Shown here: one piece after another, positions 6,234 through 56,632 of the stretch | Position numbering within the stretch: position 1 is the stretch's first letter | How the letters are laid out: every line of letters begins with the position of its first letter | NCBI GenBank assembly: GCA_049412325.1 | Contig: JBMSEL010000002.1 | Span: 14,523 to 78,522, forward strand | Source: Poseidonia sp. | Lineage (GTDB): Archaea; Thermoplasmatota; Poseidoniia; Poseidoniales; Poseidoniaceae | Reading direction: 5' to 3' | DNA: 64,000 nucleotides | Position numbers and translations under genes: made by a program | Notes under the pieces: generated by a model | Database searches by the model: none | Told to the model about the DNA's origin: nothing | What the model saw: only the letters and a program-made list of their open reading frames with translations

Positions 6234-7568
6234 TCACTGCACGGACATGAAGCCGGATTTGTCAACGCCGAAATCGATGGTGGCGTCATAACCAATTTTC
6301 GAGGTTTTGCCATCATCATATCGGGATGGGTCGAGGGAACTGCCGCGTTGGTCACTCAAAATCAATGTGTCCTTATCGGGTTGCCAACGTGTCATCATCG
6401 CCCATTCGACACGGACCGGGTCGGTGATGTCAATGTCTTCGTCCACAACGGTGACGATCTTCATGCTTTTATGGCCATCAAAGGCTGCCTTGATGGCTTT
6501 CATGCCGTCATCGGCGTTCATCTTGCGAATCTTCAAAACCGCACCGAGCCATCCACAACCGCCCTCGGTCATGTGAACATCAAGACACTCAACGACATCG
6601 TTCACAGCGGCTTTGATGGTCGGTGCCCGGGGCAAACCCATGAGGGTCTTGTGTTCGGCTTCACCAGGAATCAGAGCGTGAAATATCGGGTTGTTGCGGT
6701 GCGTGAGGCCGTCAATGGCGATCACCGGTTCTTGCCTCACATCATCCACGGTCCCCGTGATGTCGACGTAGGGGCCTTCATCGTCGTCTTCGAGCGTGAT
6801 GCGTCCCCACCAAACGTACTCGGCATCGGCAGGAACATGGACGCCGTTGGGTACTTCCACGAGGTTGAGTGATGTACCGTACAACTTTTCATGAAGGGCA
6901 GCGGCGATGGTCAACTCGTCAATGTTTTCGTTGAACGACATCGCAGCGGCGAGCAGCACCACCGGGTCGGGCGCATTCACAATCGCCACGTTGACTTCCC
7001 GACCTTCCTCACGTGCGTTCATGACCATCGTTCGGAGGTGTCGTGGAACGAGCCGGACCACGAGGTGATTTTCATCACGTAGGAACTGACGGTGGAACGA
7101 GACATTTCGGATGCCGTTATCTTGGGCGATAATGATGCTCGCCGAGGAGTAACGACCTCGGTCTTGAGGCCAATGGTGAGGAATCGGGATGGTTCGCAAA
7201 TCAACATCCTCTGCGATGTTTTCGAAGCACGGTGCCTCGTCCTTGGAAACAAGCACGGGTTCACTAGGATGGTCCATGGCCCATCCGAGCGTGTCAATGT
7301 ACGCCTCCGGTTCAATACCAATCGCCGCACACAGACGGTCTCGAGTCAGCATGTTGACGGCTGCACGATGGCCTGGGCATTCTGGGATGTTGGAGTAGAT
7401 GGTCATGGCGTGGCCGCTTGCCTGCGAGTGCTCCAACATGCCGTGAATCAGGCTGACCTCGGCGGATTCTTCGGTCGCTGCGCCGAGGTGGTCGCGGAAG
7501 GCCATATTGGACCCAGCGGTCGCCGTTGTTTCAATGTTGTTCATGGATGAAAGTGCCGTCATTTTCAT
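6234..7568 (-). CDS. UbiD-family (prenyl-FMN dependent) decarboxylase
   Basis: End-to-end UbiD-like sequence (RGRYSSASIIIAQD, VSFHRQ, EGPYVDITG, WLGAVLKI, VVDEDIDITD). ATG7568 chosen; the ORF extends to TTG7580. Confidence 0.85.
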   Translation of the reverse strand: MKMTALSSMNNIETTATAGSNMAFRDHLGAATEESAEVSLIHGMLEHSQASGHAMTIYSNIPECPGHRAAVNMLTRDRLCAAIGIEPEAYIDTLGWAMDHPSEPVLVSKDEAPCFENIAEDVDLRTIPIPHHWPQDRGRYSSASIIIAQDNGIRNVSFHRQFLRDENHLVVRLVPRHLRTMVMNAREEGREVNVAIVNAPDPVVLLAAAMSFNENIDELTIAAALHEKLYGTSLNLVEVPNGVHVPADAEYVWWGRITLEDDDEGPYVDITGTVDDVRQEPVIAIDGLTHRNNPIFHALIPGEAEHKTLMGLPRAPTIKAAVNDVVECLDVHMTEGGCGWLGAVLKIRKMNADDGMKAIKAAFDGHKSMKIVTVVDEDIDITDPVRVEWAMMTRWQPDKDTLILSDQRGSSLDPSRYDDGKTSKIGYDATIDFGVDKSGFMSVQ

Positions 7569-7613
7569 GATGCAAATCAAACGACGCCGCCCATGGTGAG
7601 CACGCTTAGAGGG

Positions 7614-11469: not shown

Positions 11470-11958
11470 ATGACTGGGGTCGTTCTTGGGCTCCATGTGA
11501 ACCCCAACGGGGGTGTTCCGAAGCATCATGTGGATACGTTGACCGTTCATCAAGAAGGATGCGTAGGCGACAAACAGAACGACCGAAAGCATCACGGTGG
11601 TCCACTCAAGGCTGTTTCAATACTTGAACAACATGTACTGGAACATCTTCAGTCAGAAGGCCATCCGATTTCACCGGGAAGCACCGGAGAAAATGTGTTG
11701 CTCGGTGGTACGGGGGCGGGTGAGATCAGAATTGGGTCGCAACTTGAATTTGGAGAGGTACGCCTGTGCATCACCAGCGATGCCCCTCCCTGCAAGACCA
11801 TCCAAGCCTCGTTTCAAAAAGGGAACTTCAATCATCTGAGCCATCGAAAAATACAGGGGCAAACTCGCTGGTATGCCCGTGTGTTGCGTGAAGGCACCAT
11901 CACGGTAGGTGATGAAGTTCTTATCCTCAATGAAGACGGGCCAATTGGAAATCAGTGA
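11470..11958 (+). CDS. MOSC domain protein
   Basis: Typical MOSC/YiiM features: HHGGPLKAVSIL, PGSTGENVLL and the conserved Cys (PPCKTI). Confidence 0.75.
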   Translation: MTGVVLGLHVNPNGGVPKHHVDTLTVHQEGCVGDKQNDRKHHGGPLKAVSILEQHVLEHLQSEGHPISPGSTGENVLLGGTGAGEIRIGSQLEFGEVRLCITSDAPPCKTIQASFQKGNFNHLSHRKIQGQTRWYARVLREGTITVGDEVLILNEDGPIGNQ

Positions 11959-13678
11959 GTTCTCGTAATGCACGAATGGCAGGATTGTCTTCGAGTCGGT
12001 CCAAGCAAGCGTGCGCCTGCTTGTGGAAGTCTTCCGCCATGGTTCGTGCATAATCGACGGAACCCAATTCTGCAAGGGCCGCCAAACCGTCAGCCAATGC
12101 ATCTGGTTCAACGGACTCACCCTTCCCCAAGACGGCCAGTAAACGCTGCTTAACCGGTCCGTCAGGCTGACGAAGCGCGTGGATAATCATCAACGTCCGC
12201 TTACCTTGTGCGATATCTGATCCAGCTGGTTTGCCAAGGGTTTCGGAATCTGAAAGCACGTCGATCACATCGTCCATGAGTTGGAAGCAGAGGCCGAGAG
12301 CTTTGCCCCAGTCAGCCATCAGTTGGATGACTTCATCATCTGCTCCGGAGATTCTGGCACCGATTTCCGCACAGATCCAGAACATGACCGCCGTTTTTCC
12401 TTCTATCATTTCGAGGTAATCGTCCTCAGAGACTTCCAGTCGGTCCTCAAACTCAATGTCGAGTTGCTGCCCTTCGCTGACTCTGCGCACCATCCAGGCA
12501 ATACGGTTAACCAACGGTGCAACATCATCTGATTCCAGATTTTCTGCCTGAACAAGACGTTCGAAAGCAATGGCGAGCATTGCGTCGCCTGCATTGATGG
12601 CGGTTGGGATGCCATATTCGATGTGGACAGCGTTCCGTCCCCGTCGGAGTTCGTCATCGTCCATGATATCGTCGTGGACCAGCGTAAAATTGTGGACTGT
12701 TTCGATGGCGGCGCCGATGTCAAAGAGTCCTGAGTGTGTGTCCCCTACAGCCTTACCGACCAGCCACGGAAGGGTCGCTCGCATTCGCTTTCCTCCCCCT
12801 TCAATCAGGTGCATCATAGCGTCACCAAGTCGCTCATGCCTGGATGCCCGGAGACTTGATTCAATGCGCTGCTCAATGAGTGGCTTCACCTCCATGATGG
12901 CAGTGAGGAGGTCAGCTCCCTCGGCCCCTGGAAGCATGAAGGTGATGTCACCCATGTCATGGATGAGGTCGTCGGCCAACTCATCTAACGCGTTCTTGTC
13001 GTTGTATGATTCCCACCACGATGGCTGCATCACACGGGTGGCAATGCATCGGAACCATGGAGCGATGGCTTCCTCGGGTGGACGCTCTTCAAGAAGCATC
13101 GCTTCGAGTTGCTCTTGTGAAACCCACATCGTATTGGCGACTTCATTTGGGTTTGGTGTGAGGTTCACATCAGCACACATCACGAGAATGTGGTCGACCT
13201 CTCGTTCAATCCACTCACTGTTCATTCGAGCAGCATAACGCATTTTTGACATGAAGGTCATGTCATCGGTCGATATGGTGGATGGATCGATGCCGAGTTC
13301 TTGCTCAAGTTTACGCACAGCGGCTCGCTTTACGCCCATGGCACCTTCCTCTTCCAATTCTTCAGGACTGTGCAACGGATGTGAGCAACACGCGTTTGCC
13401 CACACACTGGGGAACGTGACTTTGTCAGGTGAACGTTGTTGCAGCAGCATCTCTCCCTTGGTGTTGAACAACAACACGCTGAAGGCTCGGTGAAAATGAC
13501 CCGTTCCTTGATGCGTTTCGAGTTTTGACATCGGACCAATAACCGTGTCGTCTTCGGCTACCTGAATGACGGCCTCTGCCATCAACGAGGCTTGAGCTTC
13601 GTCTGCAGAACGAAGGGCAGCCATCTCGTCTGGGTTGAGTTCGACATGCGGGACGTCACTGATTCCATACCCTGACAT
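11927..13678 (-). CDS. Fusion: type-1 (eukaryote-like) IPP isomerase + short-chain polyprenyl (GGPP-type) synthase
   Basis: N-terminal half has HRAFSVLLFNTKGEMLLQQRSPDKVTFPSVWANACCSHPL and PWFRCIA..WW (IDI1). C-terminal half has FARM VHDDIMDDDELRRGR and SARM FQLMDDVIDV. Confidence 0.85.
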   Translation of the reverse strand: MSGYGISDVPHVELNPDEMAALRSADEAQASLMAEAVIQVAEDDTVIGPMSKLETHQGTGHFHRAFSVLLFNTKGEMLLQQRSPDKVTFPSVWANACCSHPLHSPEELEEEGAMGVKRAAVRKLEQELGIDPSTISTDDMTFMSKMRYAARMNSEWIEREVDHILVMCADVNLTPNPNEVANTMWVSQEQLEAMLLEERPPEEAIAPWFRCIATRVMQPSWWESYNDKNALDELADDLIHDMGDITFMLPGAEGADLLTAIMEVKPLIEQRIESSLRASRHERLGDAMMHLIEGGGKRMRATLPWLVGKAVGDTHSGLFDIGAAIETVHNFTLVHDDIMDDDELRRGRNAVHIEYGIPTAINAGDAMLAIAFERLVQAENLESDDVAPLVNRIAWMVRRVSEGQQLDIEFEDRLEVSEDDYLEMIEGKTAVMFWICAEIGARISGADDEVIQLMADWGKALGLCFQLMDDVIDVLSDSETLGKPAGSDIAQGKRTLMIIHALRQPDGPVKQRLLAVLGKGESVEPDALADGLAALAELGSVDYARTMAEDFHKQAHACLDRLEDNPAIRALRELTDFQLARLH

Positions 13679-18945: not shown

Positions 18946-19983
18946 ATGGTAACGCCTATGGCAAAAGACGTGTTGTATATTGGAATCGACTTGGGAACCT
19001 TCCGCTCGGTGATGGTTTCCTCCGACAGCCACGAAGTGGAAGAATTGACGGTCATTGGCACACCCAAGGACCCCATTGCACGCAACTTCTTGAAGCGAGA
19101 TGTGCTTTTTGGCAACGAGGCTCTCAAGAACCGATTGGCCCTGAACCTTTTCCGTCCGCTCGAACTCGGTGTGATCAAGGATACTCCCGAGGACCGAGAG
19201 TTCATCGCCCACTTCATCACGCACCTCATCGGCCTCTCTGACCCCGAAGAGTACGACCGTGTTGTTGCTGTCATCGGTGCACCTGCTGAAGCCAGCCACG
19301 TCGACAAAACGGCTATTTTTGACGCAGCTGCCGGCTCAGTCAATTCCGCTATGATCATCTCTGAGCCCTTCGCTGTGGCTTATGCTCTCGACATGATCAA
19401 CCACACCTTGGTCATCGATATCGGTGCTGGTACCACTGACCTGTGCCGTGTTTACGGAACCATTCCTGGGCCTGGCGACCAAATGCACACCGGTTACGCT
19501 GGCGACTATGTCGACAACGCCCTCATCAAGGAAATTCAGTCCAAGTACAACGGTGCTCAAATCACCAAGGACATGGCACGACGCTGGAAGGAACAGTTCT
19601 CCTTTGTGTCCACCTCTGCCCCAGACGAGCCGGTGCTGGTTGACTTCTCCATCGATGGCAAGGCCATGACCCTTGACATCACCGACTGCATGCAGCGTGC
19701 ATGCGAGTCCATCGTCGACCCCATTGTTGAGAACGTCAAGAAGCTCATTGCCGAATCCAACCCTGAATACCACGACGAGTTCCGCAAGAACATGGTCCTC
19801 GCCGGTGGCGGTTCCTCCATCAAGGGACTTGGTGCTCTCATCGAGCGCCGCCTCTCCGACATGGGCGACGTCAACGTTCACGTCGTCGACGACCCTGTTC
19901 GCTTGGGCGCCATGGGCGGTCTTCGCTTGGCCATGGAAGTTCCTGAAGAGATGTGGAAGAACCTCACACTCGCTTCTCGCTGA
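18946..19983 (+). CDS. Actin-fold cytoskeletal ATPase, MamK/MreB-like
   Basis: Motifs IGIDLGT (phosphate 1), VIGAPA, SEPFAVAYAL, VIDIGAGTTDLC (phosphate 2), KEQFSFV and LAGGGSSIKGL (adenosine). Alternative start ATG18958. AT-rich spacer upstream. Confidence 0.8.
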   Translation: MVTPMAKDVLYIGIDLGTFRSVMVSSDSHEVEELTVIGTPKDPIARNFLKRDVLFGNEALKNRLALNLFRPLELGVIKDTPEDREFIAHFITHLIGLSDPEEYDRVVAVIGAPAEASHVDKTAIFDAAAGSVNSAMIISEPFAVAYALDMINHTLVIDIGAGTTDLCRVYGTIPGPGDQMHTGYAGDYVDNALIKEIQSKYNGAQITKDMARRWKEQFSFVSTSAPDEPVLVDFSIDGKAMTLDITDCMQRACESIVDPIVENVKKLIAESNPEYHDEFRKNMVLAGGGSSIKGLGALIERRLSDMGDVNVHVVDDPVRLGAMGGLRLAMEVPEEMWKNLTLASR

Positions 19984-25396: not shown

Positions 25397-28294
25397 ATGG
25401 ATGAATATTGGCACAACCTATCTATTGCGGACAGTCTTGTCGCACAACAATCCACCGAACACGGCATTAGCGTGGATGAGGTCGTCGAACGACGGAATCG
25501 TTTTGGGGCCAACAAATTAGACGAACCCGAGAAAACCTCAGCGCTTCTCCGCTTCCTTTCTCAGTACAACGACCCGCTCAACTACCTGCTGATGGGCGCA
25601 GCAGTGGTCGCCTTCATCATTAACCCAAATCACCCTGGAGACGCCATCTTGATTTTCATTGTTCTAACGGCGAACGCCTTCTTTGGATATTGGCAGGAAA
25701 ATCAAGCGGAACAAGCCATGGACTCCTTGAAACAGATGTCCATCTCCAATTGCGTCGTTATACGAGGCGATTTTGAGAGCGAGGTGCCGACTTCCGAGTT
25801 GGTTCCAGGTGATGTTGTTCGGTTGGAGCAGGGTCTGAATGTTCCTGCAGATGTCCGTTTGATTTGGTCGCAGCAATGCAAAATTGATGAGTCTGCCCTG
25901 ACCGGTGAGTCGCTCACGATTCGAAAATCGACCGATGCCTTACCCGCAGACACACTCCTTGCTGACCGAAACAACATGGCCTTCATGGGGACAACGGTTT
26001 CATCCGGCCGTGGACTTGGTTTGGTCGTCGCCACAGGGATGAAGACCGAACTTGGAAAGATTGCCAGCCATATCGCTGAAACTCAGACGCCAAAGACACC
26101 GTTGGAACTGAAACTGGAGAGTCTTGGTAAATTCCTCGGATTCATTGCGCTGATCGTGGCCATTTTACTCGTTTCTCTGAATCTTCTGGTATCCTACGGC
26201 AAACCAGGCGTAGACCTCAAGGAAGTTGTTGTTCAACAATTCATCGTCGCGATTGCCATCTTTGTGGCCATCGTACCCGAGGGCCTGCCCATCATCTTGG
26301 TGATCACGCTCTCTCTCGGTATGCGAAACATGGCTCGGCACAAGGCGATCATACGTCGTATGAAGGCCGTTGAAACCCTTGGCTCGACCACGGTCATTTG
26401 TTCTGATAAAACCGGTACATTGACGAAAAATCAAATGACGGTTCGTCAAATCCAGACGCTAGAACGCACCTTTGATGTGACTGGTGAAGGTTTTCAGCCC
26501 AACGGTACATTGGTGCGAAACGGCGTTGAACTCAGCGATGCCGACCTCCAATCTCGACAGGCAGATTTGAGTTTCAGATTGCTGGGGGCTTGTTTGACGT
26601 TGTGCCACAACTCGAACATCGTCAAGGTCGACGGACGCTGGCAAGCCATCGGCGACCCGACCGATTCTGCATGCGCCGTTGCAGGATGGAAAATTAACGG
26701 AGATGTGAAAAAATTCTCACACCGACACCCTCGTCTCAACGAGTTCTTCTTCGACTCTATTCGGAAGCGAATGAGTGTCGTCCACGAATACGAAGGTGAG
26801 CGATGGGTCTTTGCAAAAGGCAGTGCAGGAGGTTTCAAGGACATTGCAACCACCAAGATTGTGGACAACGAATGTGTTCCTTTGACCGACGAGGATCGCC
26901 TGCACATCTCTTCCATGAACCATGAGATGGGTTCTCAAGCCATGCGGGTTATCGCCCTCCTCGCAAGAAAAGTCAAGGATGAAGAGAAGATTGACAATAT
27001 TGAATCGATTGAATCGGATTTGGTTTTCCTTGGCCTGATCGGTATCATGGACCCACCCCGGCCCGAAGTGAAGGCTGCCATTGAAACGTGCCAACGTGCC
27101 GGAATTAAGGTGAAAATGATTACTGGAGACCAACGAATGACGGCCGCAGCCATCGGTTCGGAACTGAACATAACGTCTGCATCTGGTGATGCGCTTGACG
27201 GGAAGGACCTGGCTGCACTGAGCGATGAAGAATTGGTTGCCGCAACGGGTGATGTGGCGATTTATTCCCGAGTTACACCTGACCAAAAGATGCGAATCGT
27301 CTCCTCGCTTCAGGAACAAGGTGAGATTGTCGCCATGACAGGGGATGGCGTCAATGATGCCCCAGCTCTCTCAGGGGCCAACATTGGCATCGCCATGGGC
27401 ATCGCTGGAACCGACGTTGCGAAGGATGCAGCTGACATGGTCCTGCGAGACGACAACTTTGCCAACATCGTTCATGCTGTCGAGGAAGGTCGAAAAATCT
27501 ATCAAAACATTCGAAATTTCGTGCGGTATCAAGTTTCAACGAATGTAGCGGCTGTGTCGCTGTTGGTTCTTTCTACGTTGTTCTTTGGCGCCGAGGCACT
27601 TCCGCTTACCGCCAGTCAAATTTTGGTCATCAACATCCTGATGGACGGTCCGCCAGCCGTTGCACTGGGGGTGGAAAAGAAACACGGGAATGTCATGGAC
27701 CGCCCGCCGCGTCCAGTTGACGAAGGTCTACCAAACGGTCGAGATATCTCACTGATATTCTACCTTGGTGCTGTGATGGTCATCGGTACCTTACTGGTAT
27801 TCTGGCTCGGTGGAGGCGGACTTGCCAGCGCTGAACCGTGTACATTGCGCACCACAGAGACGAGTACGACAGCCTTTGACATGGAGGCGTGTTTGGCCGG
27901 TGATCAGGCGGCCATCGACGAATGGCAATCCTATGCCGATGGTCATTTCCAACACGCACAAACCATGACGTTCGCTGTGTTTATCGTCTACCAACTGTTC
28001 AATGTTATGAATTGCAGATCGAACGAAGAGAGCGTGTTTGAACTTGGACTCCTCTCAAATCCTGCCATCAATTATGCCCTGCTCATCTCCTCTGGTTTGC
28101 TTTTGTTCTTTGTTCAGCTGGCAGAAATGACCATTCCTGTGGTTGGTATCGAGATCGGTTCTTTGTTGCGAACGACTCCACTCACTCAGAACGATTGGGT
28201 GGTGGTCGCCCTCATCGCATCAAGTGTATTTATCATCGAAGAGTTTAGAAAATTCATCGTTAAGTCGGGAATGTTTGCTATCCGTCAACATTGA
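25397..28294 (+). CDS. P-type ATPase, type II (Ca2+/cation-transporting, SERCA/PMCA-like)
   Basis: Motifs TGES, PEGLP, DKTGTLT, MITGDQ and TGDGVNDAPAL. SD GAGGGGG lies upstream. Confidence 0.92.
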   Translation: MDEYWHNLSIADSLVAQQSTEHGISVDEVVERRNRFGANKLDEPEKTSALLRFLSQYNDPLNYLLMGAAVVAFIINPNHPGDAILIFIVLTANAFFGYWQENQAEQAMDSLKQMSISNCVVIRGDFESEVPTSELVPGDVVRLEQGLNVPADVRLIWSQQCKIDESALTGESLTIRKSTDALPADTLLADRNNMAFMGTTVSSGRGLGLVVATGMKTELGKIASHIAETQTPKTPLELKLESLGKFLGFIALIVAILLVSLNLLVSYGKPGVDLKEVVVQQFIVAIAIFVAIVPEGLPIILVITLSLGMRNMARHKAIIRRMKAVETLGSTTVICSDKTGTLTKNQMTVRQIQTLERTFDVTGEGFQPNGTLVRNGVELSDADLQSRQADLSFRLLGACLTLCHNSNIVKVDGRWQAIGDPTDSACAVAGWKINGDVKKFSHRHPRLNEFFFDSIRKRMSVVHEYEGERWVFAKGSAGGFKDIATTKIVDNECVPLTDEDRLHISSMNHEMGSQAMRVIALLARKVKDEEKIDNIESIESDLVFLGLIGIMDPPRPEVKAAIETCQRAGIKVKMITGDQRMTAAAIGSELNITSASGDALDGKDLAALSDEELVAATGDVAIYSRVTPDQKMRIVSSLQEQGEIVAMTGDGVNDAPALSGANIGIAMGIAGTDVAKDAADMVLRDDNFANIVHAVEEGRKIYQNIRNFVRYQVSTNVAAVSLLVLSTLFFGAEALPLTASQILVINILMDGPPAVALGVEKKHGNVMDRPPRPVDEGLPNGRDISLIFYLGAVMVIGTLLVFWLGGGGLASAEPCTLRTTETSTTAFDMEACLAGDQAAIDEWQSYADGHFQHAQTMTFAVFIVYQLFNVMNCRSNEESVFELGLLSNPAINYALLISSGLLLFFVQLAEMTIPVVGIEIGSLLRTTPLTQNDWVVVALIASSVFIIEEFRKFIVKSGMFAIRQH

Positions 28295-28307
28295 TGATGC
28301 GAAGCAC

Positions 28308-29552
28308 ATGTTCTTGAGGTGGGCATTCAACCCCCTGACCATGGAGGCCGTGATGAGCCCTGCACCCTTAGCCGGGGAACACCACGATTGGCTACCACGG
28401 CTCAGATCATCGCTGGAGCATGTGTCATGGTCACCAGCCTTGGCTCCCATCGCTGAAAAGTTAGCAGCCAACCGTCCACTCAACGTGGAGGATGGTATCG
28501 TCCTCTACGAGCACAGCGACTTGAGCGAGGTTGGAGCATTGGCTGATCTGGTGCGAAAGGCACGCTTTGGTACAAAGGCGTTCTTCAATTCAAACGTGCA
28601 CATTAATCAAACCAACATCTGTGTGTTGGCTTGTCGATTTTGCGCATTCCGCCGGGGCCCCAAGGCCGAGGATGCTTATGCCATGTCGGTTGAGGATTAT
28701 CTCGCTGATTTGGCGACCTACGCCCATGCTGTTGACGAAGTTCATTCGGTTGGTGGTCTTCACCCGGAGTGGGACGTTCAGCATTATGAAACGCTCTTTT
28801 CCAAAGTCGCAGAGGAACACCCGCACATTTCCATCAAAGCGTTGACCGCGGTTGAAATCAAACATTTGGCCCAACGCTCATCCACCTCAACGAAAGAGGT
28901 ACTCAAGCGACTGAAGAACGCTGGCCTCACCTCCCTCCCAGGGGGAGGTGCTGAGATTCTCGATGATGATGTGCGGGCTGTGATTTGTAACGGGAAGGAA
29001 AGTTCGCAAGAGTATCTGCAAATCCACCGCGAAGCTCATGAGGTGGGATTGCCGTCCAATTGCACCATGCTCTTTGGCACGATTGAAACCTTGAAACAGC
29101 GATTGCAGCATATGATTTCTCTGCGAGAATTGAACGCTGAAACGAAAGGGTTCCAGTGCTTTGTTCCCTATCCCTTCCTGCCCGACGACACCCGCCTGCC
29201 TGAAGCTCAACTCGCCAGCGGAACAGAAGTGCTGCGAACCATCGCTGTATCCCGTCTCATGCTCAACAACATTCCACACATCAAGGCCTACCGAATGAAC
29301 ATCGGCGATCACGTTGCCGAACTTGCACTGCAATTTGGTGCTGATGACATCGACGGCACGGTCCAAAAAGAATCCATCATGCACCTCGCTGGCTCAACGG
29401 CTCCGCTCGACCACGATCGAGCCAAGTTGGCACGGTTGATTCACGATGCGGGTTGTGAACCTGTTCAACGAAATACGATCTATTCAACCTTTGAACCTTA
29501 TACGCCACCACCTGTTCAACCACGCCGTCGCCTTCAGATGGCGTCTGATTGA
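28308..29552 (+). CDS. Radical SAM enzyme of the MqnE/MqnC (futalosine pathway) family
   Basis: NICVLACRFCAF (CxxxCxxC), PGGGAEILDD and GFQCFVPYPF. Adjacent to mqnA and mqnD. The track ORF start at 28143 lies inside the ATPase gene. Confidence 0.75.
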   Translation: MFLRWAFNPLTMEAVMSPAPLAGEHHDWLPRLRSSLEHVSWSPALAPIAEKLAANRPLNVEDGIVLYEHSDLSEVGALADLVRKARFGTKAFFNSNVHINQTNICVLACRFCAFRRGPKAEDAYAMSVEDYLADLATYAHAVDEVHSVGGLHPEWDVQHYETLFSKVAEEHPHISIKALTAVEIKHLAQRSSTSTKEVLKRLKNAGLTSLPGGGAEILDDDVRAVICNGKESSQEYLQIHREAHEVGLPSNCTMLFGTIETLKQRLQHMISLRELNAETKGFQCFVPYPFLPDDTRLPEAQLASGTEVLRTIAVSRLMLNNIPHIKAYRMNIGDHVAELALQFGADDIDGTVQKESIMHLAGSTAPLDHDRAKLARLIHDAGCEPVQRNTIYSTFEPYTPPPVQPRRRLQMASD

Positions 29553-29561
29553 GGAATCGAC

Positions 29562-30374
29562 ATGACAGATACATGGGCGTCCACCCTCGGTCGTGTGGCT
29601 TTCATCAATTGCGATCCGCTCTACCATGAGATCCCCGATGAGTGGAATGTTTTGGCCGCACCGCCATCATGGCTGACAGGACACGTGCTTCGTCGAGATT
29701 GCATTCTTGCACCCATTCCAGCCGCCGATTATGCGAAACATCAGAAAGAACTGGTGCTGCTTCCTGACATCGGCATCGGAAGCCAGGGTGAAGTTGGTAG
29801 CGTCTTGTTGTTCGGAGCCGTGCCCATTTCCTCGATGAAGACCATCGCTTTGCCGAGTGATTCTGCAACGTCAGTCGCCCTGCTCAAACATCTGCTTGCC
29901 AAACGGGGTCATACAATGTCGTACGTATCGACCGGCCCGGATTATGATTCTATGATGGCCATGGCAGACGGTGCATTGCTTATTGGAGATCGAGCGCTTG
30001 AAGCCGCTCGAGAGTTTCCTGAAATGGTTCAGTTGGACCTCGGTGAAGCATGGATGCAAGAAGAAGGCCTGCCCATGATTTTCGGTGTCTTTGTCGCCCG
30101 AGCAGACACACCATCTTCTTTGGTTCGGCAAGCCCATGCCGTACTTCTTTCCAACCTCGTCCAATTTGAGAACGATGATGAGAAGCGCGAGCACGTCATT
30201 CGCTGGTCAATGGAAAAATCTGGTCTGACCTACGAACGCCTCGACAAATACTACGGTGAGGTGTTCAACCGATTGAATCAACATCACCTCGATGGGTTGT
30301 TCAAATTCCTTTCTGAAGCGTGCAACATGGAAGATGAACCCCGATTTGCATGGTCTGCAGATACGGTTGTATGA
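29562..30374 (+). CDS. mqnA: Chorismate dehydratase MqnA (futalosine pathway)
   Basis: LGRVAFINCDPLYHEI, GEVGSVLLFG and SDSATSVALLKHLL resemble MqnA. SD GAGGAA lies upstream. Confidence 0.75.
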   Translation: MTDTWASTLGRVAFINCDPLYHEIPDEWNVLAAPPSWLTGHVLRRDCILAPIPAADYAKHQKELVLLPDIGIGSQGEVGSVLLFGAVPISSMKTIALPSDSATSVALLKHLLAKRGHTMSYVSTGPDYDSMMAMADGALLIGDRALEAAREFPEMVQLDLGEAWMQEEGLPMIFGVFVARADTPSSLVRQAHAVLLSNLVQFENDDEKREHVIRWSMEKSGLTYERLDKYYGEVFNRLNQHHLDGLFKFLSEACNMEDEPRFAWSADTVV

Positions 30375-30420: not shown

Positions 30421-31299
30421 ATGGTTGAACTTCCATTGGATGAAGACGGCAACAAAATCGTACGAATCGGCCACAGTCCCGACCCTGATGACGCCTTCAT
30501 GTTTCACGCCATGACCACCAATGCCTTTCCAACGCCCGGGTACAATTTTGTGCACGAACTTCAAGACATTGAGACGCTCAATCATCGAGCCATGAATCAA
30601 GACCTCGAAGTGTCAGCGGTTTCCATTCACGCGTACCCCGACATCGCTGACCACTATGCGCTGATGAATTGTGGTGCCTCCATGGGCGAAGGCTATGGCC
30701 CAATGATTGTCTGTAAGGAGGGGGTATCGGAAGAACAAGCCCGAAACAATGTGATTGCAGTTCCTGGTTTGAAAACCAGTGCCTACCTCGGACTTCGTCT
30801 TGCCTGGGGCGACTGCGAGGTCGCTGTTGTCCCGTTCGATGAAATCATCCCCCGAATATTAGATGGTACCTACCTCAGCGGTTTGATCATCCATGAAGGT
30901 CAACTGACCTATGTTGACCATGATCTCAACGTTCTAATCGACCTCGGAAAGTGGTGGAATGCTCGAACGAACAACTGGCCCATGCCACTGGGCGGTAATG
31001 TCGTGCGCCGAGACCTTGGCGAGGCCGTGATGCAAGACATCACCAAGTACACCAAAATGAGCATCGAATACGCGCTCGCATCACCTGACGAAGCACTTGA
31101 ATTTGCCAAAGCATGGGGTCGTGGAATTGACGACGATACCAACCGAGAGTTTGTCGGCATGTACGTGAATGACCGCACCATCGATTACAAAGAAGAAGGA
31201 CGAGCATCCATCCGCCAGTTCATTTCCGAAGGGCAGGCCATTGGACTCATTCGGGAAGATTTTGACACGAGCGGAATGCGTTTTATCGGAGAACCCTGA
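30421..31299 (+). CDS. mqnD: 1,4-dihydroxy-6-naphthoate synthase MqnD-like
   Basis: IGHSPDPDDAFMFHAM and DIETLN..A...LEVSAVSIHAY resemble MqnD. SD AGGTGGGGG lies before ATG30421. Confidence 0.7.
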   Translation: MVELPLDEDGNKIVRIGHSPDPDDAFMFHAMTTNAFPTPGYNFVHELQDIETLNHRAMNQDLEVSAVSIHAYPDIADHYALMNCGASMGEGYGPMIVCKEGVSEEQARNNVIAVPGLKTSAYLGLRLAWGDCEVAVVPFDEIIPRILDGTYLSGLIIHEGQLTYVDHDLNVLIDLGKWWNARTNNWPMPLGGNVVRRDLGEAVMQDITKYTKMSIEYALASPDEALEFAKAWGRGIDDDTNREFVGMYVNDRTIDYKEEGRASIRQFISEGQAIGLIREDFDTSGMRFIGEP

Positions 31300-31308
31300 G
31301 GGCTGGTC

Positions 31309-31797
31309 ATGAATGCCGAGGGCCGTATTCCCAAGGTGAGTCAATACGGTTCGGTTGACCCTGCACCGCCCTCAAGAGAGACCGTGGTCGCCGAACTCAC
31401 AGAACGTTTGTGCGACGAATCGTTGCCGATGTTTCAACGCATGAGGGCAGTCTTCGGTCTTCGGAACCAACGCACGGATGACGCATGCCTCGCGTTGTGC
31501 CAAGGCTTCAGCAGCGAAAGTGCCCTCCTCCGACACGAAATTGCTTACGTGCTCGGTCAGATGCAAAACGTCGCCGCTCTACCAACACTGATTGAACGAC
31601 TTGAAGATGCGAACGAACATGTCATGGTTCGCCATGAAGCGGCGGAGGCGATGGGCGCCATTGGCGATCGGTCCGTGATTCCATCGCTTGAGAAGTTCAG
31701 TCAAGATCCTCTACCGGAGGTTGCCGAATCATGCATCGTCGCCCTCGATCTTCTTGCATGGGTTGACGGGGCTGAATTCGATGACACCGAATGCTGA
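31309..31797 (+). CDS. Half-length deoxyhypusine hydroxylase (DOHH)-like HEAT-repeat protein with two His-Glu motifs
   Basis: SVDPAPP, MFQRMRAVFGLRN, SALLRHEIAYVLGQMQ, VMVRHEAAEAMGAIGD and EVAESCIVALDL. From memory this is colinear with the C-terminal half of eukaryotic DOHH. Confidence 0.65.
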   Translation: MNAEGRIPKVSQYGSVDPAPPSRETVVAELTERLCDESLPMFQRMRAVFGLRNQRTDDACLALCQGFSSESALLRHEIAYVLGQMQNVAALPTLIERLEDANEHVMVRHEAAEAMGAIGDRSVIPSLEKFSQDPLPEVAESCIVALDLLAWVDGAEFDDTEC

Positions 31798-31850: not shown

Positions 31851-32060
31851 ATGCCACACGACCACATCCAATTGGCTCAAGCCCCCAACGGTGAACTTGG
31901 TCCACGATGCCACAACTGTGGCATGCGCCTCACGTTTGGTAATGCGATGGTGGTCGACAAGTACTACATGTGCTGGGAGCACTATGTCGAAGCCACTGGC
32001 GCAGATACGGCCACCGAAATCTCGGATGCCGACGAGCGCTTCTGGATGAAGCAGGACTGA
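31851..32060 (+). CDS. Small hypothetical protein with CxxC and C..H pair
   Basis: 69 aa from ATG31851, with AGGAAGG upstream. Contains CHNCG...MCWEH. Lies immediately upstream of priS. Confidence 0.35.
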   Translation: MPHDHIQLAQAPNGELGPRCHNCGMRLTFGNAMVVDKYYMCWEHYVEATGADTATEISDADERFWMKQD

Positions 32061-33398: not shown

Positions 33399-34394
33399 GT
33401 GAGTCCGTTGGGTCTGCGCAGAGGGAAGAAATCCAAGAAGTCGGATGCGTCTCTGCCCATGCCTGATTTGCCCCCACCCGCAGGTCTCCCCGCCCCACTC
33501 CCACTACCCGGTGCAGCACCATTGCCGCCCTTGCCGGGCATGCCTTCTCCGGGAGAGCCCGCCATTCCCGCTCCGTTGCCTGCACCAGCCGCAGTGGCAC
33601 CCGCGCCTGCAACGCCAGTTCCTCTTCCAGCACCCGTCAATGACCCTGAAACGACCCTTTCTGGAATTGCCAAGGAAAGCGGCTACAACGAATTGTGGGC
33701 CAAGCGCTCCGAGAAACCACTCCAGCAGATTTACGGGCATATCGATCGCATCAGCAACAAGGAAGCGGGTTCTCTCCTCGACCGATATGCAGACCGCTTC
33801 GGCCACTCCCTCGACCGGGAAATCATCGTCATGAGAAAGGCAGCCATGGAGGACAAGGTCGCTGAGATTCGTGATGCCCCCACCGTTGAACTTCTTGAGG
33901 ATGAACCTGCTGCACCCTTGAGTGAATTGCAGCAGGTTGAAGATGAACTTCGCGCCCTCAAGCCACTGTATCAAGAAGCCAAGGCACTGGGTGATAAAGA
34001 AACGCTGGCCGAACTCACGCCAACCCTGCAAGCGTTGATGTCGCGCAGAAAAGCCCTCAAGGGCGGCGCTCCTCCTGCCGCTGAAGCCCAAGTTGCGGAT
34101 ACGTCGGACGATGAAGACGATTTGTTTGCACAGTTTGTTTCCATTGTTGATTCTCTGTTGGGTGACCATCTCCCTGAATCCATCGTGAATGATTTCATCG
34201 CAAGTGCGGACTTTGAAATCTACCAAGAGGTCGCTCAATCACCTGCCACGGCAGACGAAGAGACTCGAACTGCCTATTACCGTATGGTTGATGATCAGCT
34301 TGGCAATATGTCCTCGGAATCCATTACAGCATTTGTTGAGTCTGAAGACTTCGCAATCTACCAAGCAATCGGTGAACGATACAAGGATGAGTGA
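33399..34394 (+). CDS. Hypothetical protein: Pro-rich N-terminus, acidic C-terminus with duplicated motif
   Basis: GTG start; the first ATG is at 33459. About 65 aa of PxP-rich sequence. Contains the duplicated motifs DFIASADFEIYQEV and AFVESEDFAIYQAI. Confidence 0.5.
   Translation: MSPLGLRRGKKSKKSDASLPMPDLPPPAGLPAPLPLPGAAPLPPLPGMPSPGEPAIPAPLPAPAAVAPAPATPVPLPAPVNDPETTLSGIAKESGYNELWAKRSEKPLQQIYGHIDRISNKEAGSLLDRYADRFGHSLDREIIVMRKAAMEDKVAEIRDAPTVELLEDEPAAPLSELQQVEDELRALKPLYQEAKALGDKETLAELTPTLQALMSRRKALKGGAPPAAEAQVADTSDDEDDLFAQFVSIVDSLLGDHLPESIVNDFIASADFEIYQEVAQSPATADEETRTAYYRMVDDQLGNMSSESITAFVESEDFAIYQAIGERYKDE
33459..33650 (+). repeat. Proline/alanine-rich low-complexity coding tract
   Basis: Translation: PDLPPPAGLPAPLPLPGAAPLPPLPGMPSPGEPAIPAPLPAPAAVAPAPATPVPLPAP. 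Confidence 0.6.
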
Positions 34395-34399
34395 ACTAC

Positions 34400-35248
34400 A
34401 TGGGACTATTGGACAAAGCAGCAGCCTCAGGAGGCGACGACCCCAAGCCAAAGGCAAAAGCCGTACCGAAAGCAAAAGCTGTGGCCAAGGCCAAGCCTGT
34501 GGCGAAAGCCAAGCCAGTCAAAGCAGCAAAACCGGCCAAGGTGAAAAAGGAGCGTGCACCACGTGCTCGCCCAATGGAACTCTCTGAGGATTATGAACTC
34601 GCTACAAAAATGAATCGCCGTATTTCTTCACTCGTGAACTTCTTCATCAACTTCGGCGTATTGTTTGCTGCGTTATTTATCGCAACATCAGATACAGGCA
34701 TCGTGACCACCATCCTCTTCGCTGTAGGCGGTGCGATCATCATCATTAACGCCATCTTCATTCCAATGAAATTCAGTCGCAATCTCGGACAATTCGTTTC
34801 TCGAACGAAGTTTGTTCGTGGCGATGGCTCAAACCCTTTGTTTTTGCATGGGATTCTGGTGAACACTTCCGGTCTTCTTGCACTCATGGGCTTAATTCTC
34901 GTCGGTACGCAATTCCAAAACCTCTCTGAATCCGACAACACGGGTGCGATCATTTCCTTTGCTTTGGGAACCATTTTCATGATTCTATGGTTTGTTGACC
35001 GCTACCTTCGTAGCGGCAGTGCCATGGGTCAGGGCCTGTATGACTTGGCCTTCAGAGCGTACTTGGTGAAATATATCCCCTCTGAAGAGGAGAAAGCCTC
35101 TGGCATTTGGGCTCGACTTGAGAACATGGGCAACTTTGGCGATCAGTTGGTGAAGCGCCAAGAAGAACGCAAGGCCAAAAAAGAATCAAAGAACGCCGAG
35201 GGCGCTGAAGAAGCCGCTGAAGCAGAGACAACCACTCAAGAAGACTGA
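34400..35248 (+). CDS. RDD-family-like membrane protein with Lys/Ala/Pro-rich N-terminal tail
   Basis: Has about 4 hydrophobic segments. LGQFVSRTKFVRGDGSNP resembles the RDD loop. ATG lies 6 nt after the upstream stop. Confidence 0.6.
   Translation: MGLLDKAAASGGDDPKPKAKAVPKAKAVAKAKPVAKAKPVKAAKPAKVKKERAPRARPMELSEDYELATKMNRRISSLVNFFINFGVLFAALFIATSDTGIVTTILFAVGGAIIIINAIFIPMKFSRNLGQFVSRTKFVRGDGSNPLFLHGILVNTSGLLALMGLILVGTQFQNLSESDNTGAIISFALGTIFMILWFVDRYLRSGSAMGQGLYDLAFRAYLVKYIPSEEEKASGIWARLENMGNFGDQLVKRQEERKAKKESKNAEGAEEAAEAETTTQED
34444..34550 (+). repeat. Imperfect tandem coding repeat (AAG/GCC-rich) encoding KAKAV/KAKPV units
   Basis: Translation: PKPKAKAVPKAKAVAKAKPVAKAKPVKAAKPAKVKK. Confidence 0.6.
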
Positions 35249-54715: not shown

Positions 54716-56632
54716 ATGATTATAACGCCGTTCATTGTGGTATTATCAGGTGGCCGAATGAGTGATGATGAACCTGATTCCGTGCCGATGGCTGAATGTG
54801 GTGCTTGCCGAGCCGTTATCCCCATCAATTCTGAGTCATGCCCGGAGTGTGATACGAAGTTTTCTGGCATCTCCGAAGACGCTCTCGGAGAGTGCGGCGG
54901 TTGTCAAGCACTTGTGCCACTCGACTCGACCCGCTGCCCGGAGTGCGGCGTTTTGTTCGTTGCTGATGATGTGGTAGACATCCTGCGGCAGTGGGTCGCA
55001 GACACTGGCATCAACATTCGAAAATTGTTCGATCGTTTTGATGAAAACAGCGATGGAACCATTGATTCTTTAGAACTCAAACAAGGGCTCCTGAGTTTAA
55101 ATTTGGCAGATCTTCCTCCCTCACAAGTTGATCGGCTTGTTGCAGAAATTGATGCCGACGGAAATGGCCTCATCGACCTTGATGAGTTTGATTCGATCTT
55201 AAACGGTGCTGGAGACGAGTCGCCTGAAGATGAAGTATCTGAAGATGAAGCGTCTGAAGTAGACTCCGATGAAGCAGATTCAGCGCTTGTTCCCACATCA
55301 GCCGAAGGCGTTGAGGAAGACGAAGAGGACGCTTCGGAAGAGGCCGCATCTGAAAATCAGCAATCAGAGACTGGCGATGAATACGAAGAGGATCTCGACG
55401 TCGAAGGCGCCTTCGATGACATCGATGATGAAGACTTTGACCTCGAAGATGAAGAAGAGGTTGTGGAAGACGACGAAATTGACCCATCAACCGCGGATGA
55501 TGAGGTCCAAGCCAACGACGAAGATGACGGCGAGGAAGCGACCACGGATGAAGCAGAGGCAGATGCGCCTGTCGAACATCCACTGGCTGCCCTCGCTTCC
55601 ATGATGGACGAGCATGACATCTCGGCTCAGCGGATGTTCAACGAGCTTGACGTGGACGGAAACGGCATGATTTCTCTGGCAGAGTTGCGGACCGCCCTTG
55701 ATGAAAAGTACGGCGAGTTGCTTGAAACTGATGATGTGGACGCCATCATGGAAGCTGTTGATGATGATGGAGATGGAATGATTGACATCACCGAATTTTA
55801 TGACTCGATGGAATCGCTTGAGGATCATGAAGAGGCTGTTGAAGCACACGCTGCGGAGAAGGAATTCCCGAGCGTTTGGCAAAAGCGAATGATGTCAAAA
55901 TCATGGAACGACGCCGTTTGGCCCATCCTCCATGTTGGGTTCGGCATCCTGATTGCACTTGTCCTTGTCAATGCACTTTTCGGACCTGTTGATGGCAGTG
56001 GTGGCAACGTTGCCTATGTGCCAAACGATTCAGGATTGATCCCTGGGGATGGTTTGGTGGAAGGCGACGTCTACAAGTGCGACGAAAAATACCAAGAAGG
56101 AGGATGCCCCAATTCCCTGACGATTATGGGAGGGCCTGATTCTGACTTTTCCATGCCAAAGGGATTCTACCTTGACGGCATCATACTGTTGATGCTTTCC
56201 ACCATCGGGCTCATTGGGTCGTTGTTCTTGCACCTCGTGAAGGCTCCAGAATGGCGTGCTCGAGCCAAGGCCATGAAGGAATTCGGTGAAGACAAAGCCG
56301 ATGCATCCAATGAATCAGAGGATGAGGGAGCAGAAACCGACGAAGATGAATCCGAAGATGGAGACAATGATGCTGAATCAGAATTGGAGGCAGACGCGGA
56401 TGATGATGAGGACCTGGATGAGGAGGAAGATGAGGTCGAAAGTCTCGATGAAGAGGATGATGAGGTCGAAGATGCCATCGACATTGGTTCGCACATTGGG
56501 TTGGTGTTTGATGATGAAGAAATCTTTGGAGTCATTGTTGAATTCGACGATGAGGAAGAGACCGTCACCATTGAAGAAGACGGCACTGGAGACCTGGTGA
56601 CCGGCTACCAAGAGGACATGTTCATTGAGTGA
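54716..56632 (+). CDS. Membrane protein with two zinc ribbons, four EF-hand Ca2+-binding loops and poly-acidic linkers
   Basis: CGAC..CPEC and CGGC..CPEC ribbons. EF loops DENSDGTIDSLE, DADGNGLIDLDE, DVDGNGMISLAE and DDDGDGMIDITE. Two TM helices. Strong SD AAGGAGG lies 6 nt before ATG54716. Confidence 0.75.
   Translation: MIITPFIVVLSGGRMSDDEPDSVPMAECGACRAVIPINSESCPECDTKFSGISEDALGECGGCQALVPLDSTRCPECGVLFVADDVVDILRQWVADTGINIRKLFDRFDENSDGTIDSLELKQGLLSLNLADLPPSQVDRLVAEIDADGNGLIDLDEFDSILNGAGDESPEDEVSEDEASEVDSDEADSALVPTSAEGVEEDEEDASEEAASENQQSETGDEYEEDLDVEGAFDDIDDEDFDLEDEEEVVEDDEIDPSTADDEVQANDEDDGEEATTDEAEADAPVEHPLAALASMMDEHDISAQRMFNELDVDGNGMISLAELRTALDEKYGELLETDDVDAIMEAVDDDGDGMIDITEFYDSMESLEDHEEAVEAHAAEKEFPSVWQKRMMSKSWNDAVWPILHVGFGILIALVLVNALFGPVDGSGGNVAYVPNDSGLIPGDGLVEGDVYKCDEKYQEGGCPNSLTIMGGPDSDFSMPKGFYLDGIILLMLSTIGLIGSLFLHLVKAPEWRARAKAMKEFGEDKADASNESEDEGAETDEDESEDGDNDAESELEADADDDEDLDEEEDEVESLDEEDDEVEDAIDIGSHIGLVFDDEEIFGVIVEFDDEEETVTIEEDGTGDLVTGYQEDMFIE
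55213..55570 (+). repeat. GAA/GAT-rich low-complexity coding tract (poly-Asp/Glu linker)
   Basis: Translation is about 120 aa dominated by D/E (e.g. EDEVSEDEASEVDSDEAD...DIDDEDFDLEDEEEVVEDDE). Confidence 0.6.
56306..56480 (+). repeat. Second poly-acidic low-complexity coding tract
   Basis: Translation: SNESEDEGAETDEDESEDGDNDAESELEADADDDEDLDEEEDEVESLDEEDDEVED. Confidence 0.6.

What the first reader, a model, noticed from the sequence alone, without database searches (positions are those of the whole stretch)
31309..31797. Stand-alone half-length deoxyhypusine-hydroxylase-like His-Glu/HEAT protein in an archaeal genome, appended to the mqn cluster
Seen: a 162-aa ORF starts 10 nt after the mqnD stop. 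It contains two His-Glu motifs in HEAT-like contexts (SALLRHEIAYVLGQMQ and VMVRHEAAEAMGAIGD), plus SVDPAPP, MFQRMRAVFGLRN and EVAESCIVALDL. From memory, these segments are colinear with the C-terminal half of eukaryotic DOHH, including the inter-lobe linker. No N-terminal lobe is encoded upstream, since mqnD ends without HEAT repeats. Established: eukaryotic DOHH is about 300 aa, built of two symmetric 4-HEAT lobes. Each lobe contributes two His-Glu pairs to one diiron site. To my knowledge no DOHH homolog has been reported for archaea, although some archaea carry hypusine on aIF5A. Inference: this could be a homodimerising half-DOHH, either an ancestral-like form or a candidate archaeal hydroxylase. 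Alternatively it could be a diiron HEAT protein recruited to quinone metabolism, given its apparent co-transcription with mqnE/C-mqnA-mqnD.
Basis: partly seen in the sequence, partly recalled or inferred. Interest (0 to 1): 0.7.

Follow-up and report, generated by a model that had tools for sequence, protein, structure and literature searches.

The report
Half-size deoxyhypusine hydroxylase in marine archaea
Marine Group II archaea carry a conserved gene for exactly one of the two lobes of the eukaryotic iron enzyme that completes the hypusine modification of translation factor 5A, an enzyme the literature says archaea lack.

Summary

The match is specific to deoxyhypusine hydroxylase (DOHH). 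Against human DOHH (4d4z) E = 6e-69, with 50% identity to the linker plus C-lobe and 45% to the N-lobe. The next best PDB hits are synthetic HEAT proteins, whose individual repeats score at most 29 bits.

Both His-Glu pairs, Gly83 and the SVDPAPP segment are invariant in 28 diverse homologues. All half-size homologues that carry a taxon name come from Poseidoniales, in both MGIIa and MGIIb. The gene is under strong purifying selection (dN/dS 0.02-0.04). It sits directly behind mqnD in all 97 loci measured, even where an inversion broke up the rest of the mqn cluster.

In sequence the half lies between the eukaryotic N- and C-lobes. It is closer to each lobe than the lobes are to each other, and it falls outside both crown groups.

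Best reading: a homodimeric diiron DOHH that hydroxylates deoxyhypusine on aIF5A. Dimerisation and substrate are inferred. The main rival is a different substrate linked to MqnD. I found no published description; only IMG's automatic annotation names it.

The parts
31309..31797 (+). Gene for the 162-aa single-lobe (four HEAT repeats) DOHH homologue
   Evidence: ORF. Human DOHH 4d4z E = 6.4e-69. 2485 homologues; the ~160-aa ones that carry a taxon name are all Poseidoniales. dN/dS 0.018-0.04.
31351..31371 (+). N-terminal arm motif SVDPAPP (residues 15-21), the counterpart of the inter-lobe linker of eukaryotic DOHH
   Evidence: Invariant in 28 halves. The motif is in the linker of 72 of 81 two-lobe DOHHs and in none of their N-termini. 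C-lobe HMM matches start at profile positions 3-13, N-lobe matches at about 25.
31534..31539 (+). First His-Glu pair (H76-E77), equivalent to human H56-E57 and H207-E208
   Evidence: Alignment. Invariant. Roles of the human residues from PMC9117371.
31633..31638 (+). Second His-Glu pair (H109-E110), equivalent to human H89-E90 and H240-E241
   Evidence: Alignment. Invariant. Roles of the human residues from PMC9117371.
31297..31308 (+). mqnD stop codon plus the 9-nt spacer carrying a GAGG ribosome-binding-like motif; the junction of the conserved mqnD-half gene pair
   Evidence: Sequence. Spacing runs from -8 to +13 nt in 97 loci.
30421..31299 (+). mqnD (1,4-dihydroxy-6-naphthoate synthase), the constant upstream partner. 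The longest ORF starts at 30292; gene callers use 30334 or 30421.
   Evidence: Pfam PF02621. PDB TTHA1568/3a3u and AF1704. Upstream of the half on the same strand in every locus that has upstream sequence.
29562..30374 (+). mqnA (chorismate dehydratase); context only, not part of the conserved pair
   Evidence: PDB 7ahr/2nxo 2e-25. Separated from mqnD-half by an inversion in MGIIb.
28353..29552 (+). MqnE/MqnC-type radical SAM gene; context only
   Evidence: NCBIfam MqnE 420 bits against a cut-off of 434.55, MqnC 342 bits. Called start.

Best explanation
The gene encodes a single-lobe deoxyhypusine hydroxylase. Each 18-kDa chain is one four-HEAT lobe and carries two His-Glu pairs. Two chains are proposed to pair head to head, as the N- and C-lobes do within one eukaryotic DOHH chain. 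Each chain would then give His76, His109 and Glu110 to one iron of a shared diiron centre. The dimer would use O2 to hydroxylate the deoxyhypusine side chain that deoxyhypusine synthase places on aIF5A, so these aerobic surface-ocean archaea would make true hypusine. The invariant N-terminal SVDPAPP arm corresponds to the eukaryotic inter-lobe linker and probably clasps the partner subunit. Shown here: DOHH-specific homology, complete conservation of the metal and substrate residues, the single-lobe architecture, purifying selection, presence in both Poseidoniales families, and operon coupling to mqnD. Inferred: homodimerisation, iron binding, the aIF5A substrate, and the role of the arm. In evolution the half is a third lineage that branches near the split between the two eukaryotic lobes. 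It is not a recently truncated eukaryotic gene.
For: DOHH-specific similarity: human DOHH 4d4z E = 6.4e-69, with both lobes matched. Identity is 50% to the C-lobe plus linker and 45% to the N-lobe, against 40% between the two human lobes. Pfam and NCBIfam return only generic or sub-threshold HEAT hits.

Catalytic and substrate residues: H76, E77, H109, E110, G83, Q84, R108 and E113 are invariant in 28 halves that are 58-80% identical to the window protein. They align with human H56/E57/H89/E90 and H207/E208/H240/E241, the Fe ligands and deoxyhypusine-binding residues listed in PMC9117371.

Real, selected gene: 78 of 107 half-size homologues are exactly 162 aa. dN/dS is 0.018-0.04. The family occurs in MGIIa (Poseidoniaceae) and MGIIb (Thalassarchaeaceae).

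Dyad compatibility: a head-to-tail tandem of the half, modelled with an alignment of 58 two-lobe DOHHs, gives pLDDT 92 and pTM 0.90. It superposes on 4d4z at TM 0.94 and rmsd 1.6 A over 293 columns.

No partner lobe: no second copy in the window or in 104 loci.

Same constraints as DOHH: the half scores 162 bits against an N-lobe profile and 160 bits against a C-lobe profile. C-lobes score 137 bits on the N-lobe profile and N-lobes 124 bits on the C-lobe profile. In 71 of 81 eukaryotic proteins the half is closer to both lobes than those lobes are to each other.

Pathway context, from the literature: DHS homologues are reported in all archaeal genomes (PMC5178350). A DHS-homologue cluster (speDA-speB-speY) is described in Ca. 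Poseidoniales (PMC10407285).
Against: No biochemical data exist. DHS and aIF5A were not found in the window or in 10 kb beyond each end, so their presence in this genome rests on the literature. The confident tandem model borrowed its inter-lobe signal from eukaryotic two-lobe sequences. The gene is always coupled to mqnD, even through an inversion, which could point to a quinone-related role. Cultured Thermoplasmata were reported to hold mainly deoxyhypusine (PMC5178350). Only the best 80 of the 387 GTDB matches could be inspected.
Confidence: 0.6

Rival explanations
1. It is a DOHH-fold diiron oxygenase, still a dimer, that was recruited to another substrate. The most obvious candidate is a naphthoquinone or menaquinone intermediate made by its operon partner MqnD, by analogy with the diiron quinone hydroxylase Coq7.
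For: mqnD precedes the half on the same strand in every locus with upstream sequence. The spacing is -8 to +13 nt in 97 loci. In MGIIb the mqnD-half pair was inverted as a unit, away from mqnA, mqnE and PriS. Other quinone and isoprenoid genes (UbiD family, polyprenyl synthetase) lie in the window.
Against: From my own knowledge, the futalosine route after MqnD needs prenylation, decarboxylation and methylation but no hydroxylation. Residues that bind the deoxyhypusine chain in human DOHH (E57/E208, E90/E241 and the GQ glycine) and further pocket residues (R108, Q84, E113) are invariant. Overall identity to eukaryotic lobes (44-47%) matches the identity among eukaryotic lobes themselves (42-49%), which is not expected after a switch from a protein to a lipid substrate. 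The surrounding region is a syntenic mix of unrelated housekeeping genes. A horizontally acquired gene inserted at the 3' end of an operon would give the same picture.
Confidence: 0.2
2. The half does not homodimerise. It works either with an unidentified, divergent partner lobe encoded elsewhere in the genome, or as a monomer with a single iron.
For: Whole genomes could not be searched. A divergent N-like paralogue would fall below the listed hits. The dimer itself is only modelled.
Against: No second HEAT or DOHH-like ORF lies in the 64-kb window or within 6-10 kb of the gene in 104 loci. Among the 150 best 50%-identity representatives, the only half-size ones (P0240, P0264) were traced to Poseidoniales lineages of this same family. 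The half fits both lobe profiles equally well, as expected if it plays both roles. DOHH has a symmetric dyad in which each arm supplies one Fe site (PMC8153317).
Confidence: 0.08
3. It is a recent truncated remnant of a eukaryotic DOHH gene picked up from a marine protist, either decaying or kept as a non-catalytic HEAT scaffold.
For: It carries the linker motif that precedes the C-lobe in eukaryotes, as a partial-gene transfer would. Gene exchange between MGII and stramenopiles has been proposed for a polyamine gene (PMC10407285).
Against: dN/dS is 0.02-0.04 and the length is fixed. It occurs in both Poseidoniales families, so it dates at least to their common ancestor. In 3097 of 3160 quartets the C-lobes group together and exclude the half, and no eukaryotic C-lobe groups with it in more than 9 of 79 comparisons. 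It matches the N-lobe profile better than any C-lobe does. At positions that distinguish the lobes its states are a mosaic. All catalytic residues are invariant.
Confidence: 0.03

Closest known systems
Eukaryotic deoxyhypusine hydroxylase (human DOHH, PDB 4d4z; yeast Lia1)
   Same: HEAT-repeat fold; His-Glu iron-binding pairs in HEAT repeats 2 and 3 of a lobe; the GQ(M/L)Q and VRHEAxEALG signatures; the SVDPAPP segment; 45-50% identity to each human lobe.
   Different: One lobe (162 aa) instead of two (~300 aa), and two His-Glu pairs per chain instead of four, so the diiron site can form only between chains. SVDPAPP is an N-terminal arm rather than an internal linker. The host is an archaeon, and the gene sits in an operon behind mqnD. 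The sequence is equidistant from the N- and C-lobes.
PBS-lyase-type HEAT proteins (CpcE, NblB, MTH187, YibA) and synthetic alphaRep proteins
   Same: The generic HEAT_2 / HEAT_PBS repeat; these are the only models Pfam and NCBIfam match.
   Different: Scores are an order of magnitude lower: at most 29 bits per stretch against 106-130 bits per lobe for DOHH, and 23 bits against NCBIfam cut-offs of 300 or more. The consensus of these repeats has no His-Glu pairs.
Coq7 / CLK-1 (diiron quinone hydroxylase)
   Same: Relevant only to the rival reading: an O2-dependent diiron hydroxylase acting in quinone biosynthesis. This comparison rests on my own knowledge.
   Different: An unrelated four-helix-bundle carboxylate-bridged fold with no sequence similarity. 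The futalosine pathway has no known hydroxylation step.

Membership tests
Deoxyhypusine hydroxylase (DOHH/Lia1) | Sequence similarity specific to DOHH rather than to HEAT repeats in general | tested here: met
   4d4z E = 6.4e-69, at 106 and 130 bits for the two lobes. The next hits are synthetic HEAT proteins at no more than 29 bits per stretch. The half scores 160-162 bits against N- and C-lobe profiles.
Deoxyhypusine hydroxylase (DOHH/Lia1) | Iron ligands (human H56, H89, E90 / H207, H240, E241) and deoxyhypusine-binding residues (E57/E208, E90/E241, G63/G214) | tested here: met
   H76, E77, H109, E110 and G83 align to them and are invariant in 28 homologues. Residue roles from PMC9117371.
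Deoxyhypusine hydroxylase (DOHH/Lia1) | Eight HEAT repeats in two symmetric lobes, with four His-Glu pairs, on one polypeptide of about 300 aa | tested here: not met
   The protein is 162 aa with one lobe and two His-Glu pairs. The length is conserved at 157-170 aa in 107 homologues. No second lobe is encoded nearby.
Deoxyhypusine hydroxylase (DOHH/Lia1) | Dyad arrangement of two lobes that brings the His-Glu pairs to one diiron site | tested here: inconclusive
   The tandem of two halves models at pLDDT 92 and TM 0.94 to 4d4z, but the alignment came from two-lobe proteins. The single-sequence run reached only TM 0.53. No true multimer prediction was available, and no coordinates were returned to measure distances.
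Deoxyhypusine hydroxylase (DOHH/Lia1) | Conserved SVDPAPP segment before the C-lobe | tested here: met
   Invariant in the halves. Present in the linker of 72 of 81 two-lobe proteins.
Deoxyhypusine hydroxylase (DOHH/Lia1) | Co-occurrence with deoxyhypusine synthase and (a/e)IF5A in the same genome | not tested
From the literature: DHS is in all archaeal genomes (PMC5178350), and a DHS homologue is reported in Ca. Poseidoniales (PMC10407285).
Deoxyhypusine hydroxylase (DOHH/Lia1) | O2- and Fe-dependent hydroxylation of deoxyhypusine on IF5A | not testable with these tools
   Needs biochemistry or mass spectrometry.
Bilin-lyase / NblB HEAT proteins | Score above the NCBIfam cut-off for CpcE, CpeY or NblB | tested here: not met
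   20-23 bits against cut-offs of 300-600.
Futalosine (Mqn) pathway enzymes | Homology to a known Mqn enzyme, or a known pathway step that needs a diiron oxygenase | tested here: not met
   There is no Mqn family hit; only gene adjacency to mqnD links them. That the pathway has no hydroxylation step rests on my own knowledge.

The most novel reading that the evidence does not exclude
The Poseidoniales protein is a living example of the single-lobe, homodimeric form from which the two-lobe eukaryotic DOHH arose by tandem duplication and fusion. If so, the hydroxylation step of hypusine synthesis is not a purely eukaryotic invention, and one of the most abundant archaeal groups in the ocean makes true hypusine with it.
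Probability: 0.25. Interest if true: 0.85.

Novelty: new variant of a known kind. Interest (0 to 1): 0.78.

Why it matters
Reviews of the hypusine pathway state that archaea have deoxyhypusine synthase but no DOHH orthologue (PMC5178350, 2016; PMC8153317, 2021).

This gene is a clear DOHH homologue found in both families of a globally abundant archaeal order, and it comes in a form not described before: one lobe instead of two. Three things follow if the reading is right.

- It gives a directly testable candidate for hypusine formation in an archaeon.
- It is a natural half-enzyme for studying how a diiron site is built across a HEAT-repeat dyad. At 18 kDa and symmetric, it should be easier to work with than the eukaryotic protein.
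- It anchors the evolutionary history of the eukaryotic enzyme, because the half sits between the N- and C-lobes in sequence.

It does not explain the hypusine reported in Crenarchaeota. Every half-size homologue that carried a taxon name, and all 80 GTDB matches I could inspect, came from Poseidoniales.

Tried and rejected
- Promoter and terminator scans gave no more sites than shuffled sequence, and the models are bacterial.
- The AlphaFold tandem without an alignment was too weak to use (pLDDT 58).
- The neighbour-joining tree recovers halves, N-lobes and C-lobes as three clades, but bootstrap support is low (52%, 16%, 14%). I relied on quartets and profile scores instead.
- No indel in the core separates N-lobes from C-lobes, so indels give no polarity.
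- Motif and Pfam searches for DHS and aIF5A in the window and 10 kb beyond each end found nothing.
- The supplementary files of Rinke et al. do not mention the pathway.
- A scan of viral contigs found no copy.
- I considered that the half evolves unusually slowly. Across the same loci its identity (median 73.5%) is like that of mqnA and mqnE and lower than that of mqnD (86%), so that idea is dropped.
- I considered ascertainment bias, since the eukaryotic set was picked for similarity to the half. The pattern holds in the bottom third of that set and for human DOHH.

Full report
**1. Observation.** Its ATG lies 9 nt after the TGA of the upstream gene, and a GAGG motif overlaps that stop. The upstream gene is MqnD: Pfam PF02621 at 7e-63, and PDB TTHA1568/3a3u at 8.5e-49 and AF1704 at 2e-66. 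Before it come MqnA (chorismate dehydratase 7ahr, 2e-25) and a MqnE/MqnC-type radical SAM gene. Neither MqnD nor anything else in the window carries HEAT repeats.

**2. Is it DOHH-like or just HEAT?** Pfam and NCBIfam see only generic HEAT_2 and HEAT_PBS, or bilin-lyase models far below their cut-offs. Neither library returned a DOHH-specific model.

Against all PDB sequences the top hit is human DOHH (4d4z) at E = 6.4e-69. Residues 4-155 align to the linker plus C-lobe (140-291, 130 bits), and residues 27-153 align to the N-lobe (12-138, 106 bits). The next hits are synthetic alphaRep proteins, whose scores are sums of many stretches of at most 29 bits each. By BLASTP the half is 50% identical to the human C-lobe with linker and 45% to the N-lobe, while the two human lobes are 40% identical to each other.

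H76-E77 and H109-E110 align to the four strictly conserved His-Glu pairs of DOHH. H56, H89, E90, H207, H240 and E241 hold the two irons. E57, E90, E208, E241 and the GQ glycines bind the deoxyhypusine chain (PMC9117371).

**3. The family.** The large protein database holds 2485 relatives. The closest ~100 are 157-177 aa, and 78 of 107 are exactly 162 aa. Those with an NCBI name are called 'HEAT repeat domain-containing protein', 'PBS lyase' or 'hypothetical protein', from Poseidonia, Poseidoniaceae or Poseidoniales. IMG names them 'deoxyhypusine monooxygenase'.

- A 159-aa sub-lineage, 58% identical to the window protein, belongs to Thalassarchaeaceae (MGIIb). A third 50%-identity cluster is Poseidoniaceae again.
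- In species-representative genomes (GTDB), 387 stretches encode a relative. The 80 best all have Marine Group II gene order, including the original MG-II chromosome CM001443.1. One is labelled as a Verrucomicrobiales bin but shows the same synteny.
- Among the 150 best 50%-identity representatives of 1.84 billion proteins, only two are half-size. The rest are ~300-aa two-lobe proteins or giant HEAT arrays. The two-lobe ones that carry names are eukaryotic.
- In 28 diverse halves, H76, E77, H109, E110, G83, Q84, R108, E113 and SVDPAPP are invariant.
- dN/dS against the window gene is 0.018-0.04 in the seven pairs where synonymous sites are not yet saturated.
- No copy is on viral contigs.

This is a real gene under selection. 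It was present in the common ancestor of both Poseidoniales families.

**4. Gene context.** In MGIIa the order is P-type ATPase, mqnE/C, mqnA, mqnD, half, 69-aa zinc ribbon, PriS, all on one strand. The distance from the mqnD stop to the half's start is -8 to +13 nt in 97 loci.

In MGIIb the mqnD-half pair is inverted as a unit. mqnA and mqnE now converge on it, and PriS with the zinc-ribbon gene diverges from it. In one MGIIa lineage a WD40 gene separates mqnA from mqnD, but not mqnD from the half.

The conserved unit is therefore mqnD-half, very probably one transcript. The wider neighbourhood is a syntenic mix of unrelated housekeeping genes.

**5. Relation to the two eukaryotic lobes.** I split 81 two-lobe proteins into N- and C-lobes with a profile built from the halves. 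Mean identities over the core (profile positions 30-152, linker excluded) are:

| Comparison | Mean identity |
|---|---|
| half vs N-lobes | 43.7% |
| half vs C-lobes | 46.6% |
| N-lobes vs C-lobes | 38.0% |
| N-lobes vs N-lobes | 41.7% |
| C-lobes vs C-lobes | 48.7% |

- In 71 of 81 proteins the half is closer to both lobes than those lobes are to each other. This holds in the least similar third of the set and for human DOHH.
- Profile cross-scores agree. Against the N-lobe profile the halves score 162 bits, C-lobes 137 and N-lobes themselves 155. Against the C-lobe profile the halves score 160 bits, N-lobes 124 and C-lobes themselves 173.
- At positions that tell N from C, the half is a mosaic: 3 C-like to 1 N-like under the strict criterion, and 5 C-like, 6 N-like and 1 neither under the loose one.
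- A neighbour-joining tree gives three clades but weak bootstraps. Distance quartets put the half outside the C-lobe crown in 3097 of 3160 cases and outside the N-lobe crown in 2707 of 3160. No single eukaryotic lobe attracts it.
- No indel gives polarity.
- One feature is shared with the C-lobe only: the SVDPAPP segment, found in the linker of 72 of 81 two-lobe proteins and in none of their N-termini.

Two histories fit. The half could be a pre-duplication form whose N-terminal arm became the linker. Or it could be a very early offshoot of the C-lobe with its linker, from before the last eukaryotic common ancestor, kept consensus-like because it must play both roles. A recent truncated transfer from a crown eukaryote does not fit. 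The restriction to Poseidoniales among everything I could inspect suggests a horizontal transfer at some point, but its direction is open. Insertion behind mqnD would be a typical landing site for an acquired gene; that is inference.

**6. Dimer.** DOHH is a symmetric dyad in which each arm supplies one Fe site (PMC8153317). A homodimer of halves would rebuild the site exactly.

No multimer predictor was available, so I modelled a head-to-tail tandem of the window protein. Without an alignment the model is weak: pLDDT 58, and best PDB hit 4d4z at TM 0.53. With an alignment of 58 two-lobe DOHHs it reaches pLDDT 92.2 and pTM 0.90. It then superposes on 4d4z_B at TM 0.94 and rmsd 1.6 A over 293 columns.

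This shows compatibility, not independent proof, because the inter-lobe signal came from eukaryotes. The second SVDPAPP, in the linker position, is modelled at pLDDT about 95. The first, which has no counterpart in the alignment, is not. Its proposed role as an arm that clasps the partner is inference.

**7. Function.** I favour DOHH activity on aIF5A, at 0.6, for these reasons:

- All metal and deoxyhypusine-binding residues are kept.
- Identity to eukaryotic lobes is as high as identity among eukaryotes, which reviewers of the field attribute to the need to dock on eIF5A (PMC9117371).
- Poseidoniales live in oxygen-rich surface water (abstract of PMC10783094), so an O2-dependent enzyme can work there.
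- DHS homologues are reported in all archaeal genomes (PMC5178350), and specifically in Ca. Poseidoniales, next to an arginine decarboxylase and an agmatinase (PMC10407285).

I could not confirm DHS or aIF5A in this genome.

The main rival, at 0.2, is a DOHH-fold oxygenase working on a product of MqnD. The invariant operon coupling supports it. Against it are the lack of a known hydroxylation step in the futalosine route and the unchanged substrate pocket. A hidden partner lobe (0.08) and a decaying or non-catalytic remnant (0.03) are unlikely.

**8. Novelty.** Full-text searches gave no paper describing an archaeal DOHH homologue. I combined DOHH or deoxyhypusine with Marine Group II, Poseidoniales, Thermoplasmatota and Asgard and with archaea in general. 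The papers read state that none is known. Only IMG's automatic KO label points to it.

I rate it a new variant of a known kind: the known enzyme, in a new domain of life and a new single-lobe architecture. It does not account for the hypusine reported in Crenarchaeota.

Noticed in passing
window 31851-32060 (+): A 69-aa CxxC...CxxH zinc-ribbon gene lies between the half-DOHH and PriS. It is conserved in all MGIIa loci. In the MGIIb inversion it stays next to PriS, not next to the half, so it may be a small primase-associated protein. It has no Pfam hit here and a weak YrzR_Zn_ribbon hit in one lineage.
   Followed up: partly
L011 1215-3455 (-), also L012 and L013: In one Poseidoniales lineage a 735-746-aa WD40 beta-propeller gene, which hits eukaryote-type WD40 families, is inserted on the opposite strand between mqnA and mqnD. 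The mqnD-half pair is left intact.
   Followed up: no
window 54716-56632 (+): A 638-aa protein combines a double zinc ribbon with several EF-hand calcium-binding pairs, an unusual architecture for an archaeon.
   Followed up: no
window 33399-34394 (+) and 34391-35248 (+): Two genes with no Pfam match follow PriS and are syntenic across Poseidoniales. One has a Pro/Ala-rich N-terminus. The other has a Lys/Ala-rich repeat (KAKAVPKAKAVAKAKPVAKAK...) followed by hydrophobic segments.
   Followed up: no
L048 (NZEQ01000006.1): This contig is labelled 'Verrucomicrobiales bacterium ARS100' but carries the complete Marine Group II gene order around the half-DOHH. It is probably mis-binned.
   Followed up: partly
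window 6234-7580 (-) and 11927-13678 (-): Further quinone and isoprenoid genes lie in the window: a UbiD-family decarboxylase (a possible late menaquinone step) and a NUDIX-polyprenyl synthetase fusion.
   Followed up: no
window 28143-29552 (+): The radical SAM gene heading the mqn cluster scores 420 bits for MqnE, just under NCBIfam's cut-off of 434.55, and 342 bits for MqnC. Only one such gene is in the cluster, so the second radical SAM step must be encoded elsewhere.
   Followed up: no
window 18946-19983 (+): An MreB/actin-like protein that also hits the archaeal Salactin and Volactin families.
   Followed up: no
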